Part shown: positions 9,001 through 15,000 of the stretch, piece by piece | How positions within the stretch are numbered: position 1 is the first letter of the stretch | Layout: each line of letters starts with the position of its first letter | Position numbers: made by a program | Virus record (IMG/VR): IMGVR_UViG_3300029417_000059 | Reading direction: 5' to 3' (one strand) | Length of the DNA: 18,835 nucleotides | From: a virus | Taxonomy: Duplodnaviria; Heunggongvirae; Uroviricota; Caudoviricetes

Positions 9001-12000
9001 TGAGGCCGATGCATCAGTCAGGCCGGGGGATTTTGGGGAGTAGTATTTCGGTAAATCTTCCAGTTTCATTTTTTGACCTGCCCTTCAAGCATTATGGGGT
9101 AAATCTTCACCCCCAGACGTCCACCAGATACTGGCTGAGCACGAACGATATTGATTTCATCAAACTGCTCATCGTCCATTAGCAACCCCGCATGCGTCAG
9201 CGCATCCAGCGGCGCTTTCAGAATATTGTCCAGGTCACGGCGGCGCTTATCCGGTGGTTCTGCAATAATTTTTATTGCCAACCTTCCGGACAGGCTTAAT
9301 TTCAGCCGCTGCTGGCGAACAATAAGCGCCACTGCCCGGCGATAACGCTCCCCGGCTTTTGATACAAAATATGTGCTGCCACGACGACGCCAGTAAGTGT
9401 TCACCGTTGGCGGGTAAGGCAAAACAAATTCTATGCGTTCAGTCATTTATGCTTTCCACTTCAAAACACCCGAATTTCTCGCGTGCATTAAAAAACGAAT
9501 CAGCAACAACAGCTGGCTGCCGTGTTTTTCTTCAAAATCTTTTACCCCGGCGTGTAGTTCGCTATGGCATTTACGGCACAGCGGAATAACAAACAAATCA
9601 TCAGCCTTTGTTCCCATCCCTCCCAGTCCATGACCAATGATGTGATGCGGATCATCTGCCTGATTGCCACACGTCATGCATTTCTGCGTTTTTACCCAAC
9701 GCGTGTATACAGGCATCTCTTCCCGTTGTGATTTCTGGCGCTGGAGATACTGAGCCGGTGACTCCGGATCAACGGCAATGCTGACCACCGTCTTTTCCTG
9801 TGGCGGGTTTTGCTGGTGGGCGTGAGGCAGCGGCGCAAGATTTTTTGTGCGCTGCTTCAGTATGCTGGTGGCGGTCTGCTCTCCCGGTACGATGTCGCTT
9901 TCACGGTACATTGAGCGGATTTTTTCCGCACGCAACCCCAGCGAACGACGTAATACCGCTTCCGGTAGCGCGTCCGCCACCTGATTGCGGACCGCCCACC
10001 AGGATAATTCAGCCAGCGATAATTCCCGTTCCTGCGAGCCATTCATTGCATGGCGTATGACGTCAATCATCCATGCAAACAGGTTTTGGTGAGCAAGTTG
10101 CCCGAGTGATTCGGAGGTCTGGTCGCGCAGCTGGTTGTCGCAGTGCCAGCACAACACCATTGCGCCGGTACCATAACGGTGAATGACGGTTTCACTGTGG
10201 TGATAATCGCCGTGTGGCCACTGGCAGGATTTAACATGGCGCAGTAACCAGTCAGACAATGCGCCAGCGCCACCAGCAGCACGAATCACTCGTTCGTCGC
10301 TGAAAAATGGCAGTAATGATTTATCCTCCGCCAGCGGCTGGCGAACGGCAGGAACGACCCCGGACGGCAGATTACGCATGCTTTTCGGTTCCGGCTCCAC
10401 CAGTACCCGGGTATTGTGGAATACCGGCATGGATTCACGGCCCGGCTTAACGATCACCAGCCCGAGTTCCGGTACCAGAACAGGTCGAAGTAATACCCGC
10501 ACGTTACCTCCAGATGCGTTGCTGGAATGTGCGGGACGGACGCGGTGGGCGTTCAGAGTAAGGAAGCCTGACGGAGATTATCCAGTGACGATAATCGAGG
10601 CTGAGGGCTTTCTTAATCTCGTATCCGCGTCTGCGGTAGTTATGAATTAGCCATTCGGCCTGTTCTTCAGTACATGGTGGGTGTTGGTACCAGTCGGTTT
10701 TAAATGCGTGTGAACGCCGCCCATGCCGGATGGCAAGGTCGGTATCAGAATTGTGAAATTTGGTTTTGTGCGCCATCTGTTTTCTCTGCTGGCGCAGCAG
10801 GTGTCAGGTGTTCAGGCTGACGTGCGAATTGTAAACCAGAATGCCAGAAAAAAACAAAACCCGCCGAACCGGGTTAAGTGCGGGTGCGTTGAGGATGCCT
10901 GACACATCAGAGGTGGCGAGGGATTTCTCCCCCGCCAGGTCTCTTACTCCTCAGGTTCGTAAGCTGTGAAGACAGCGACCTCCGTCTGGCCGGTTCGGAG
11001 TCGTACCTCGCAGAGGTCTTTCCTCGTTACCAGTGCCGTCACTATGACGGTTAAACAGATGACGATCAGGGCGATTAACATCGCCTTTTGCTGCTTCATA
11101 GCCTGCTTCCCCTTGCCTTTCGGCACGTAAGAGGCTAACCTACATTTGTGAGACATAGATTGGGCCTCAGATTAATGTTAAGCGTCTTGCAGGACGCGAA
11201 ATGTTAACTGGGGCTTTTCTCTATCTGCCTTTCAGTGTTCATGCCTGAGACAGATAGCCTCAAGCACCCGCAGCCATTCTACTTAACTCACGTCACCTCG
11301 CCAATATGAAATCAATCAGAAAGGTGATCCATAAAATCACTCCTTCTCTTCTTTTCCGTAGTGGAGTTGGCCAATTTTGATAAGAGGGCGTCCCTGAGAT
11401 TTGCGGTGTAGATTGGTATCGCGCAGAGAATACACACAGCCACAATATTCCTGCTGATAGAATTTTTCGCGCTTGCTGATTTCAATCATACGGGACGAGC
11501 CGCCCTGCTTGCGCCAGTTATAATCCCAGTACACCATACCCGGATAATGCGCAACAGCTCGCCGCCCACACTCGTTAACCTGCTGCATATTTTTCCAGCG
11601 TGAAATGCCCAGTGAACTGCTGATCACACTGAAACCATTTTCAGCAGCGTACAACGCTGTCCGCTCAAAACGCATGTCAAAACACATGGTACAACGGATC
11701 CCCCTCTCAGGCTCCCATTCCATTCCTTTGGCACGTTCAAACCAGTTGTCGGTGTCGTAATCAGCATCGATAAACGGCACGCCGTGTTGTTCAGCAAAGC
11801 GAATATTTTCATCCTTACGAATTAAATACTCTTTCTGAGGATGAATGTTCGGGTTGTAGAAAAAGATGGTGTAGTCGATTCCCGAGGCCTGAAGCGCCTC
11901 CATCACTTCACCGGAACATGGAGCACAGCAAGAGTGCAGTAGTAGTTTGTTTGCCCCGTTTGGGAGCTCCAATTTAGGCCGTTTGAAATCAGCAATAGTC

Positions 12001-15000
12001 ATAAATATTTTTATTGGGGTCATGAAAATAGCACAGAGTGTAGCATCAGAGCAGGGCTATCGGGAATATATGTCTAAATCTGGTAATATCTGGTTTTGAC
12101 GCAAAGCGGACAACCACGCTGGCTCTACCCTGCGCCATGAAAATGTCAATTCACATCTGAACTAATGCTCTTTAATCTAGTAACGTCTAAAATACCTAAC
12201 ATTTCCTTGATAAAATGCCAGTACACGCTGCATAGCTTCGCTCTTCCGGCACTCGCGACAGATTATATTCAGGCGCCTGTCGTAGCGGCGTATTTCGCCG
12301 TCTGGTAACGACCAGATAAGGTCCGGATCAACCACTGCAGGTTTCTTCACCTTTGCCCTTGAGAGTTTTTTGCGAGCATTTTGCCAGTCCTTACGCGCCT
12401 GTTCAGACGGGAATAACCCGTAACCAGAGTTGTATACATCGCCACTGGCAACCAGCTCTCTGGCGAGAACACTCATCAGATATCTTGTCGCACCTGTCTT
12501 GGCTTCCAGTTGCCGCAACGTCTCGCGACCGCTCAGACGTACAAGTTCAACAACCTGCCCTTTAATTTTTTCCCGCTCTTCTTGTGTAAATACTTTTGCC
12601 ATAAGCGCCTCCGGCAATCACTTTTCCGATACAACACGGCGGGAAGAATCAGTAATCTGTCGAACAATATCCCGGTGCTTGTTCAGCTCCCGCAGCGCGG
12701 CGCAGACTCGCTCCCACTTCTGAACATCACTTTTCGCCCTGCGCAGCGCCAGGTTTGCCCTGCGAAGGGACGGAAAAATCAGCTCATCTGCTTGCGTTTC
12801 GGTAAACGATGGCAACGGCTGCACAATGTCCGCCACAGTTTCTGTTTTAATTTCTTCCTGTGTTGCGGCTTCCCGGACTGGTAACGCAGCACCTGCTGGC
12901 TGAGGAAAGGCCTTACCATCACTTTCCGTTACCAGCGCGGCTTTCGGCTCTGCTGGTAAATTATCGCCCGGCATGCAGTAACGAAATTTACCGTTCTGAT
13001 TAACGCGTGCCAGCCGCCCCGTTGCGGTTACCACCGCCAGCGTGGAAGCAACCTTGCGAGTACTGACACCGAACTTACCCGCCAGTTCCTCACACGTTTT
13101 AGCCCCATCCTGACCGATAAACTCAATCATCATGTCTGCGGTAACTTTTTGTTCGACCTCCCCGGTCAGCATATCCTGTGCTTCAGATTTTACTGGCCGC
13201 TCTTCGGTTACCCGGGATTCACCTTCGCCAGCCAGAAACCAGGTGTGACCAGTTTTATCAACGACGCCTTTTCTTTTGAGTTCCCACAGCTCGTTGACAG
13301 CCTCTTCACGACTGATTCCAAGGCGAGCTGCCACCACATGTGAAGAGGCTTTTTTCAGTGCTTTCAGTGCGTCAGATACGGTTTCCATTAAAATTTCCTC
13401 CGGACAAAATTACTTCACAACCCTCATATTGCTGACATTTGGACGCCAGCTATCCCAGTTAAACGTCACCCATCGACCACCGTTCATGGTCATGCGGTCC
13501 ATAATCCTCTCACCAAGAAGCGTACTCATTGCGGCATGATTCAGGTTTGTTAACATCCCGACACTGCACAGTGATGCTGTCCGGCGATCAATTATCTGGT
13601 GCAATACCACCTGCTCGTTTTTCGTCTCCCGCTGAACGCCTATTTCATCCAGGACCAGCAAATCAACCCCGCAAAGCTCCTGTAAAAATTTTTCCCCGGA
13701 TTTGCCGTTGTCGTAGCTGTCATGCAACACGCTCATGACGTCAGACACGGTGACGATAATCACGCTGCGCCCCTTCACCATCAGCCGGTTGCCCATCGCC
13801 GCTGCAAGGTGATTTTTCCCGGTGCCGGTTTTACCGCTGAACACAAAATTCGTGCACCCGGTCATCAGTTCGTCAGCTATGGATTTGGCCTGGCTCAGCG
13901 CGTATTTTTGCCCGTCGTTCTGCACCTGATAATTTGCAAACGAGCATTTGCTGTGCAGAGGCTGGATGCCCGAACGATTCAGGATTTTTTCCACCCGCAA
14001 CTGGCGATTCTGGCGGTTAATCTCCTCGCTGCGTTTTCGTCCTTCAGCAAGTTGCCATTCCCGCCACTCCTCCACCGTCCGGTACGGTGGAACCGACCCC
14101 TGTGGTGCAAGTCTGCGAATACGTTCAAGAACCCCAACTGCCGCAATGTTTTTCATGACACGTCACCCCCTGAATCCCGGCGGTATTTCAGTGTCCGGTT
14201 CAGAAATGTGATTCACGCAACGCTGCGCAGGCGAACGCCCCAGGCGGATAACCAGTTCATCCCATTTTTCCCGGAGTTTTGCCGGACTCATGATGTTTTT
14301 TACCCAGAACGAATCCCGCTGGAGACGCCCAAACATTTCACAAATTTGTCTGTGAGTTCTGCCATCCAGCATCCGCATTGTGCGAACGTCATTGGCCCAT
14401 GCTGTCCAGTTGGGTTCTTTCGGTCTAGTGATCTCGCCATCATAGCTGGCCGCCTGCTCGTAAAGACTCACGATTCGTCCCCAGATCCACTGTGCGCACA
14501 CCAAATCTTCCTGACTTCCCCACTGGCGTTTTTTCGCACTGAACACAACCGCGTCAGGGTGTCGGGTTAAAAAATCCTGTTCAGCCGTCTGCGGGTCCGG
14601 TTGCGAAGCGTCCGGACAAGAAGATCTTTTATCTGACGGATCAGGTTTTAATACTGACGGATCGGGGTCAATCATCGCCCCCCTAATCGGCAGTTTTTTA
14701 TCAACAGTTGATCCATCAAAATTTGACGGGTCAACCGTTGAGGGGTCAATATTTGACGGGTCAACTGTTAACGGGTCATTTTTTGCCGGGCTAATTTTTC
14801 TTTTCGGTTTATATGACTCACGCGCCGCCGCCGCAGCTGCTTCGAGTTTTTCCACATTAAGCCGATAGATATTGCTTACATTACGCCCACCGACCTTACG
14901 CTCTTCCTTCGTCAGCCAGCCCTCTTTCGCCAGTTCTGCAATAGCCGATTTCACTGTGGATTCACTTCTTGCACCGATCTGACGCCGGATAGTTTCAATG

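What the first reader, a model, noticed from the sequence alone, without database searches (positions are those of the whole stretch)
11337..12617. QueH-like (DUF208) epoxyqueuosine reductase carried as a prophage moron next to orphan hokD
A 228-aa protein with [19 protein letters not shown] and YQQEYCGC blocks sits where Qin carries relBE, between the replication genes and hokD. E. coli makes queuosine with QueG, so a QueH-type enzyme on a prophage that also carries tRNA genes suggests the phage tunes tRNA wobble modification, or uses 7-deazaguanine chemistry for something else. The gene has a 153-bp upstream spacer with promoter-like hexamers and almost no leader, so it may be expressed in the lysogen. 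The adjacent 141-aa basic CxxC protein has no assignment and could be a partner.
Basis: partly seen in the sequence, partly recalled or inferred. Interest (0 to 1): 0.75.

Follow-up and report, generated by a model that had tools for sequence, protein, structure and literature searches.

The report
Prophage-borne B12-independent queuosine enzyme QueH
A lambda-like prophage of E. coli carries an intact copy of QueH, the vitamin-B12-independent enzyme that finishes the tRNA base queuosine, with its own conserved promoter; databases already name the gene, but its phage location, found in about 18% of complete E. coli genomes, seems not to have been discussed.

Summary
Window 11337-12002 (minus strand) encodes a full-length QueH/DUF208 epoxyqueuosine reductase (Pfam E=1e-65; top sequence and fold match is the solved T. 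maritima QueH; all seven family cysteines kept). The real start is ATG 12002 (221 aa), not 12023 (228 aa). The gene lies in a complete ~54-kb lambdoid prophage at ompW, in the cargo slot between the replication module and hok, where K-12 Qin has relBE.

It is a captured chromosomal Enterobacterales queH (88-92% aa identity to non-phage copies) that brought its native extended -10 promoter. It occurs in 995 of 5426 complete E. coli genomes, on several prophage backbones and in one isolated phage. Every E. coli genome also has the B12-dependent queG.

Most likely role: a lysogenic-conversion gene that makes the last step of queuosine synthesis independent of cobalamin, which E. coli cannot make.

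Not supported:
- Link to the prophage tRNAs, which are Arg, Arg and Ile2, not queuosine substrates.
- 7-deazaguanine DNA chemistry: no tgt/dpdA/queA/C/D/E genes.
- DUF977 as a partner: it is a common Ren-like replication-module gene.
- "Orphan" hokD: mok and sok are present.

RefSeq already names the gene QueH. I found no paper describing phage carriage. Interest is moderate.

The parts
11337..12002 (-). queH coding sequence (221 aa plus stop).
   Evidence: Pfam PF02677 E=1.1e-65. PDB 7lc5 QueH E=7.8e-22. RefSeq WP_000150294.1 is named 'epoxyqueuosine reductase QueH'. The start is settled by alleles and homologues.
12037..12045 (-). Candidate extended -10 promoter element TGCTACACT (TGnTAnnnT), 43 nt upstream of the ATG. 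It was carried in with the gene.
   Evidence: It is the only upstream element kept in all phage contexts. It sits at -38 to -44 in the 7 closest chromosomal queH loci, against a 2% background. The inference is from conservation; no transcript has been mapped.
11333..12051 (-). Minimal queH cassette shared by all prophage backbones. In HannyBb and NCTC10537 it extends to 12118.
   Evidence: blastn boundaries against L002, L003 and L004. Phage Tritos shares the hok side only up to 11334.
12177..12602 (-). Upstream neighbour: DUF977 / Ren-like protein (141 aa), the last gene of the replication module. It is not part of the queH unit.
   Evidence: Pfam PF06163 E=7e-28. phrog_142. 6116 places in 4040 genomes.
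10944..11304 (-). Downstream neighbour: a complete hok/mok/sok locus. hok is at 10944-11099, mok at 10944-11156, the Rfam sok match at 11094-11269 and a promoter-like site at 11304-11276.
   Evidence: Pfam HOK_GEF. Rfam RF01794, 120.5 bits. Promoter scan. RefSeq hokD. K-12 homology stops at 11113.

Best explanation
The gene is a functional QueH. QueH is an iron-sulfur enzyme that needs no cobalamin and reduces epoxyqueuosine (oQ) to queuosine (Q) at position 34 of tRNA-Asp, -Asn, -His and -Tyr.

A lambdoid phage captured it from an Enterobacterales chromosome, together with about 50-115 nt of upstream DNA that contains the gene's native extended -10 promoter. It sits in the variable cargo slot after the replication module.

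Expression is expected by two routes. Its own promoter can drive it in the lysogen. No terminator is detected between it and the early-right operon, so read-through transcription can drive it during lytic growth.

Every E. coli genome surveyed has queG, which needs cobalamin, and E. coli cannot synthesise cobalamin de novo. The prophage therefore makes completion of Q independent of B12 supply and of BtuB uptake. This is a lysogenic-conversion (moron-like) trait.

Shown here: enzyme family, intact ligands, orthology, origin, distribution, promoter conservation and purifying selection. Inferred: transcription in the lysogen, enzyme activity, and any fitness benefit.
For: Enzyme identity:
- Full-length PF02677 match.
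- Best sequence and fold matches are the T. maritima QueH structures, with target-normalised TM-score 0.71-0.74.
- C32, C33, C36, C111, C114, C194 and C196 (228-aa numbering) are invariant. CCAPCS is the usual family motif.

Origin:
- 78-92% aa identity to chromosomal QueH.
- Providencia queH lies between tmcA and purC. The closest copies (Scandinavium, Kluyvera, Enterobacter) have no phage neighbours.

Cargo behaviour:
- The same cassette is found on prophages at ompW, on a Rac-like prophage at trkG, on a Qin-like prophage and in isolated phage HannyBb.
- K-12 has relBE in the same slot, and phage Tritos has another gene there.

Promoter: TGCTACACT is conserved at about -43 across otherwise unalignable flanks.

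Selection: dN/dS is 0.05-0.06 between prophage alleles, and all 22 distinct alleles examined are intact.

Redundancy and cofactor logic:
- queG is in 5426 of 5426 genomes and queH in 995.
- The final Q step in E. coli depends on cobalamin through QueG (PMC4646009, which cites Frey 1988).
- QueH is the cobamide-independent, iron-dependent alternative (PMC6461909, PMC13443448).
Against: - There are no expression or activity data.
- The consensus scan found no full sigma-70 promoter on the gene's strand, and the leader has no Shine-Dalgarno sequence.
- No terminator closes the cassette, so it is not a textbook moron.
- To my knowledge no clear phenotypic difference between oQ- and Q-tRNA has been established, so a benefit is conjecture.
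- The divergence between alleles may predate capture, which weakens the selection argument for the phage context.
- The AlphaFold model is only moderate (pLDDT 68.8), and it is poor around the metal sites.
Confidence: 0.6

Rival explanations
1. QueH serves the phage during lytic growth. It is transcribed with the early-right operon and keeps the Q-tRNAs fully matured, which improves translation of phage NAU/NAC codons.
For: The gene is on the same strand as the cro/O/P-like/Q genes, and no terminator is detected between them. It is retained in a plaque-forming phage, HannyBb.
Against: The NAU fraction and the NAY share of phage late genes (0.56) and early genes (0.53) equal a host sample (0.57). 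tRNA turnover within one lytic cycle leaves little unmodified substrate. The conserved native promoter points to expression that does not depend on the phage programme. This rival does not exclude the main explanation.
Confidence: 0.15
2. queH is passenger DNA. It was picked up by illegitimate recombination into a permissive slot and spread by hitch-hiking with successful prophages. It has no selected role in E. coli.
For: It is fully redundant with the universal queG. 82% of genomes lack it. The slot accepts unrelated cargo. Most copies are one near-identical allele: 55 of 90 sampled.
Against: It is intact in all distinct alleles sampled, with dN/dS about 0.05. The cassette has moved among at least four phage backbones while keeping the gene and its promoter.
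Confidence: 0.17
3. QueH acts on something other than tRNA, for example a 7-deazaguanine modification of phage DNA, or it works as a two-protein system with the adjacent DUF977 protein.
For: In 81 of 81 Escherichia phage loci, queH lies just downstream of DUF977. Phages are known to use 7-deazaguanines in DNA (PMC6884629).
Against: - No tgt/dpdA, queA, queC, queD, queE or folE is annotated in the whole prophage or in HannyBb.
- The protein is 80-92% identical to housekeeping QueH, so there is no sign of a new function.
- DUF977 is six times more frequent than queH, and it is absent beside chromosomal queH.
- The adjacency is explained by the cargo slot lying right after the replication module.
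Confidence: 0.05

Closest known systems
QueH (DUF208, PF02677) epoxyqueuosine reductase, e.g. Thermotoga maritima QueH (PDB 7LC5) and the chromosomal QueH of Providencia, Erwinia and Photorhabdus
   Same: Same domain over its full length, same cysteine motifs (CCxxC, CxxC, CxC) and same predicted fold. It is 78-92% identical to proteobacterial chromosomal orthologues.
   Different: It is carried on a temperate phage, in a host that already has QueG. T. maritima has Asp (D13) where this protein, and most of the family members examined, have Cys36.
[quoted passage not shown]
   Same: It catalyses the same reaction on the same tRNAs.
   Different: It is an unrelated fold and needs cobalamin. It is a core gene (5426 of 5426 genomes), whereas queH is accessory and phage-borne (995 of 5426).
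Lambdoid phage morons and cargo genes in the post-replication (nin-like) region, e.g. relBE next to hokD in K-12 Qin
   Same: It occupies the same slot, is present or absent among otherwise similar prophages, and appears to have its own promoter.
   Different: No terminator of its own was detected. The cargo is a tRNA-modification enzyme rather than a toxin-antitoxin, virulence or exclusion gene.
Phage 7-deazaguanine gene clusters (FolE, QueC/D/E, DpdA) that modify phage DNA
   Same: Both belong to queuosine-related metabolism carried by phages.
   Different: Those clusters make preQ0-type bases and insert them into DNA. Here there is only the last tRNA-specific step and no transglycosylase. 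Hutinet et al. 2019 (PMC6884629) reported no QueA, QueG or QueH in the viruses they analysed.

Membership tests
QueH / DUF208 (PF02677) | Full-length match to the family profile above the curated threshold | tested here: met
   221.5 bits against a cut-off of 23.5; profile positions 1-174 of 175.
QueH / DUF208 (PF02677) | Conserved cysteine motifs that bind the [4Fe-4S] cluster and the adjacent iron (CCxxC/D, CxxC, CxC) | tested here: met
   C32, C33, C36, C111, C114, C194 and C196 are invariant in 14 orthologues and align with the T. maritima residues (C9, C10, D13, CxxC, CxC). CCAPCS is also present in the Staphylococcus, Listeria and gut homologues examined. The assignment of ligand roles is from my memory of Li et al. 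2021, which I could not read here.
QueH / DUF208 (PF02677) | QueH fold | tested here: met
   The AlphaFold model (pLDDT 68.8) has 7lc7, 7lc5, 9dco, 9d86 and 9deu as its top five PDB matches, at E about 1e-9 and target-normalised TM-score 0.71-0.74. Confidence is low around the metal sites.
QueH / DUF208 (PF02677) | Reduces oQ-tRNA to Q-tRNA without cobalamin | not testable with these tools
   Needs complementation of delta-queG and LC-MS of tRNA nucleosides.
Phage moron (independent transcription unit added between conserved phage genes) | Present or absent between the same flanking genes in related phages | tested here: met
   The slot holds queH, relBE or another gene in related prophages.
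Phage moron (independent transcription unit added between conserved phage genes) | Own promoter | tested here: inconclusive
   An extended -10 (TGCTACACT) is conserved with the gene across phage and chromosomal contexts. The consensus scan gives no full promoter, and no transcript has been mapped.
Phage moron (independent transcription unit added between conserved phage genes) | Own terminator | tested here: not met
   The cassette ends 3-5 nt after the stop codon. The first terminator-like site on this strand is at 10875-10858, after hok.
Phage 7-deazaguanine DNA-modification system | DpdA/TGT-type transglycosylase plus preQ0 synthesis genes (FolE, QueD, QueE, QueC) | tested here: not met
   None is annotated in the 54-kb prophage or in HannyBb. 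The check rests on annotation only, not on a profile scan of every ORF, and the last 6 kb of HannyBb (39.2-45.3 kb) was not viewed.

The most novel reading that the evidence does not exclude
Temperate lambdoid phages reprogramme the host tRNA epitranscriptome as a lysogenic-conversion trait. By supplying QueH they uncouple queuosine maturation from vitamin B12 and BtuB. This would give lysogens an advantage where cobalamin is scarce, or where btuB is lost under phage or colicin pressure. The lysogens include ST131, O104:H4, APEC and some O157 strains.
Probability: 0.3. Interest if true: 0.6.

Novelty: new member of a known kind. Interest (0 to 1): 0.4.

Why it matters
Queuosine affects decoding of Asn, Asp, His and Tyr codons, and it has been linked to stress and metal phenotypes in E. 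coli. Its last step in E. coli depends on a vitamin that the bacterium must import.

A phage-delivered, B12-independent enzyme in about 18% of complete E. coli genomes would mean that tRNA modification status differs between strains because of prophage content. It would also be a rare example of a temperate phage carrying a tRNA-maturation enzyme as cargo.

There is a practical point as well. PHROGs family phrog_3217 ('unknown function') and the HannyBb annotation could be updated to QueH.

Tried and rejected
- **tRNA link:** rejected. ARAGORN and Rfam give Arg-UCU, Arg-UCG and Ile2-CAU only.
- **Riboswitch or other RNA element upstream of queH:** no Rfam hit at gathering threshold near 12000-12200.
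- **Codon-usage rationale:** no NAU/NAC difference between phage and host genes.
- **Composition anomaly:** queH is about 47% GC against 50-55% for its neighbours. This is too small to be informative.
- **NCBIfam:** no hit for QueH, although PGAP names the protein.
- **Other 'phage' records with QueH:** these are flagged UNVERIFIED or are very large contigs, probably bacterial DNA. Only HannyBb counts as an isolated phage.
- **Literature:** ten full-text searches found no paper on prophage or phage QueH. Zallot 2017, Li 2021 and Miles 2011 were not held, so prior mention there cannot be excluded.
- **Apparent extra cassette boundary near 12173 in L017/L029:** this is an IS5 insertion, not a cassette edge.
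Full report
**The observation**

The minus strand of the window carries an open reading frame that ends at 11337. Its first ATG is at 12023, which gives 228 aa. The product contains [19 protein letters not shown] and YQQEYCGC.

It matches Pfam PF02677 (QueH, formerly DUF208) over the whole profile, at E=1.1e-65 and 221.5 bits against a cut-off of 23.5. Its only hits among solved structures are the Thermotoga maritima QueH entries (7lc5, E=7.8e-22). 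An AlphaFold model of moderate quality (pLDDT 68.8) has the five TmQueH structures as its best PDB matches, with target-normalised TM-scores of 0.71-0.74.

Seven cysteines are invariant among 14 orthologues: C32, C33, C36, C111, C114, C194 and C196 in 228-aa numbering. T. maritima has Asp13 where this protein has Cys36. CCAPCS is also the motif in the Staphylococcus, Listeria and gut homologues I aligned, so the Cys is typical and T. maritima is the exception.

**Corrections to the anatomy**

RefSeq starts the protein at ATG 12002, giving 221 aa (WP_000150294.1, 'epoxyqueuosine reductase QueH'). Three observations agree with that start:
- The N-termini of chromosomal homologues begin there.
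- One prophage allele (L003) has CATTA instead of the upstream ATG.
- Another allele (L040) has a 1-nt insertion between the two ATGs, which would put the upstream ATG out of frame.

The spacer to the upstream gene is therefore 174 bp.

The neighbouring 141-aa protein (12177-12602) is Pfam DUF977 and phrog_142 'Ren-like exclusion protein'.

The hok locus downstream is complete. A mok ORF (10944-11156) overlaps hok, and there is an Rfam sok match at 11094-11269 of 120 bits. K-12 hokD shares homology only up to window 11113, so the 'orphan' description fits K-12 and not this window.

**Context**

The window is identical or nearly so (one mismatch in the 1.8 kb compared) to a prophage of E. coli strain 4/1-1, inserted in ompW next to the trp operon. 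This is a complete lambdoid element of about 54 kb. It has integrase, exonuclease, dicB/DicF, a CI-like repressor, Cro, O- and DnaC-like replication genes, DUF1627, DUF977, queH, hok/sok, DUF968, RusA, Q, a DNA methyltransferase, three tRNAs, lysis genes and a full head-tail module.

In K-12 Qin the gene order is ydfU(DUF968)-rem-hokD-relE-relB. relBE therefore occupies exactly the slot that queH occupies here. Phage Tritos has yet another gene in that slot.

**Distribution**

- The queH sequence is found in 995 of 5426 complete E. coli genomes (1017 places, nearly all chromosomal). In every row inspected it is annotated as QueH.
- It occurs on different backbones: this ompW prophage, a Rac-like prophage next to trkG that has no hok, a Qin-like prophage in NCTC10537, and the isolated 45-kb siphovirus HannyBb, where it is annotated 'hypothetical'.
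- IMG/VR holds at least 190 contigs that encode it.
- PHROGs has the family as phrog_3217, 'unknown function'.
- The other QueH hits in the phage collection are records flagged UNVERIFIED or very large contigs. I do not count them as phages.

**Origin**

The protein is 78-92% identical to chromosomal QueH of many Proteobacteria. In Providencia the gene sits between tmcA and purC, a housekeeping neighbourhood.

The closest non-Escherichia copies are in Scandinavium (92%), Kluyvera (91%), Enterobacter (88-90%) and Symbiopectobacterium (87%). They have no DUF977, hok or replication-gene neighbours. Only the E. coli and E. albertii loci are phage-borne. The simplest reading is capture of a chromosomal Enterobacterales queH by a lambdoid phage.

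**The cassette and its promoter**

Comparison of the backbones shows a shared block from about 12051 (12118 in HannyBb and NCTC10537) to about 11333, which is 3-5 nt past the stop codon. Upstream of the ATG the flanks are unalignable between contexts, apart from a short stretch around TGATGCTACAC.

That stretch contains TGCTACACT (12045-12037), an extended -10 of the form TGnTAnnnT, 43 nt upstream of the ATG. The same motif (TGCTACAAT, TGCTACACT or TGCTACCCT) lies at -38 to -44 in six of the seven closest chromosomal queH loci, and as GCTACAAT in the seventh. A TGnTAnnnT motif is expected in only about 2% of windows of that size.

I therefore infer that the gene brought its native promoter with it. 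A generic -35/-10 scan found nothing on this strand in the spacer. The perfect TTGACA at 12150-12145 has no matching -10 and lies outside the minimal cassette. Neither candidate start has a Shine-Dalgarno sequence.

No terminator-like site lies between the replication genes and queH, or between queH and hok. The gene should therefore also be transcribed with the early-right operon after induction, and it lacks the terminator of a textbook moron.

**Selection**

All 22 distinct alleles recovered are intact. Between prophage alleles that differ by 6-10% at the DNA level, dN/dS is 0.05-0.06. Part of that divergence may predate capture.

**Function**

QueH catalyses the last step of queuosine synthesis, oQ34 to Q34, and is the iron-dependent, cobamide-independent alternative to QueG (PMC5372724, PMC6461909, PMC13443448). 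In E. coli that step depends on cobalamin through QueG/YjeS (PMC4646009, which cites Frey et al. 1988).

queG is present in all 5426 genomes. That E. coli does not synthesise cobalamin de novo is established knowledge, not something tested here. From memory of Zallot et al. 2017, which I could not read here, heterologous QueH restores Q in E. coli delta-queG. If so, no dedicated partner is needed.

The best-supported mechanism is therefore that the prophage gives its host a B12-independent route to fully matured Q-tRNA. This parallels the paired QueG/QueH of Staphylococcus aureus, which use different cofactors (PMC13443448). Whether this gives a benefit is unknown. I am not aware of a clear phenotype that separates oQ from Q.

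- The prophage tRNAs are Arg-UCU, Arg-UCG and Ile2-CAU. None is a Q substrate.
- No tgt/dpdA, queA, queC, queD, queE or folE is annotated anywhere in the prophage or in the parts of HannyBb I viewed (1-39.2 kb of 45.3 kb). DNA 7-deazaguanine chemistry has no support.
- The NAU fraction of Asn/Asp/His/Tyr codons is 0.56 in late genes and 0.53 in early genes, against 0.57 in a small host sample. There is no codon-usage rationale for the phage.
- DUF977 occurs in 6116 places in 4040 genomes, six times more often than queH, and it is absent beside chromosomal queH. In the phage loci queH always follows DUF977 (81 of 81). That is expected if the cargo slot lies directly after the last gene of the replication module, so a functional partnership is unsupported, though not strictly excluded.

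**Novelty**

The gene is already named QueH by RefSeq, so the enzyme assignment is not new. Ten full-text searches found no paper that describes QueH on E. coli prophages or phages. Hutinet et al. 2019 state that no QueA, QueG or QueH homologues were found in the viruses they analysed (PMC6884629). The original QueH papers were not available to me, so an earlier remark there cannot be ruled out.

I rate it a new member of a known kind. It is an ordinary, well-conserved QueH in an unusual and widespread mobile context, and it leads to a simple, testable hypothesis about B12-independent tRNA modification as lysogenic conversion.

Noticed in passing
window 5574-5783 and 6061-6251 (-): Two tandem-like copies of the sRNA family STnc100 (Rfam RF02076, 165 and 136 bits). 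They lie between the SASA esterase/IraM region and the tRNA genes of the prophage.
   Followed up: no
window 6417-6493 (-): A third tRNA gene (Arg, anticodon UCG) is found by ARAGORN and Rfam (43 bits) between tRNA-Arg(UCU) and tRNA-Ile2(CAU). The RefSeq annotation of the matching genome lists only two tRNAs here.
   Followed up: partly
window 17765-17816 (+): A DicF antisense sRNA (Rfam, 77 bits) lies upstream of dicB, as in K-12 Qin. The immunity and early-left region is Qin-like even though the prophage sits at ompW.
   Followed up: no
L017 and L029 (IMG/VR), equivalent to window ~12173: An IS5 end (GGAAGGTGCGAATAAG) is inserted at a CTAG site between DUF977 and queH in two prophages, about 170 nt upstream of the queH start.
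   Followed up: partly
window 11114-11304, compared with K-12 Qin (L168 9289-9347): In K-12, relBE abuts hokD where this window still has the mok 5' end, the sok region and the hok promoter. The relBE insertion in Qin therefore appears to have removed the hok regulatory region.
   Followed up: partly
L002 5134-5507 and L004 5611-5984: HannyBb and the NCTC10537 prophage carry 373 extra bp between queH and the hok/sok locus, plus a short methyltransferase fragment between DUF977 and queH. This suggests repeated recombination in the slot.
   Followed up: no
PHROGs phrog_3217; PP925841.1 33011-33697: The phage-protein family that matches QueH (E=1.7e-138) is labelled 'unknown function', and the HannyBb gene is annotated 'hypothetical protein'. 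Phage annotation pipelines currently miss this enzyme.
   Followed up: yes
window ~5074-5409 (+) (L001 5875-6210): The prophage also carries an IraM anti-adaptor homologue (an RpoS stabiliser) and a SASA-family carbohydrate esterase upstream of the lysis genes. These are further candidate lysogenic-conversion cargo.
   Followed up: no
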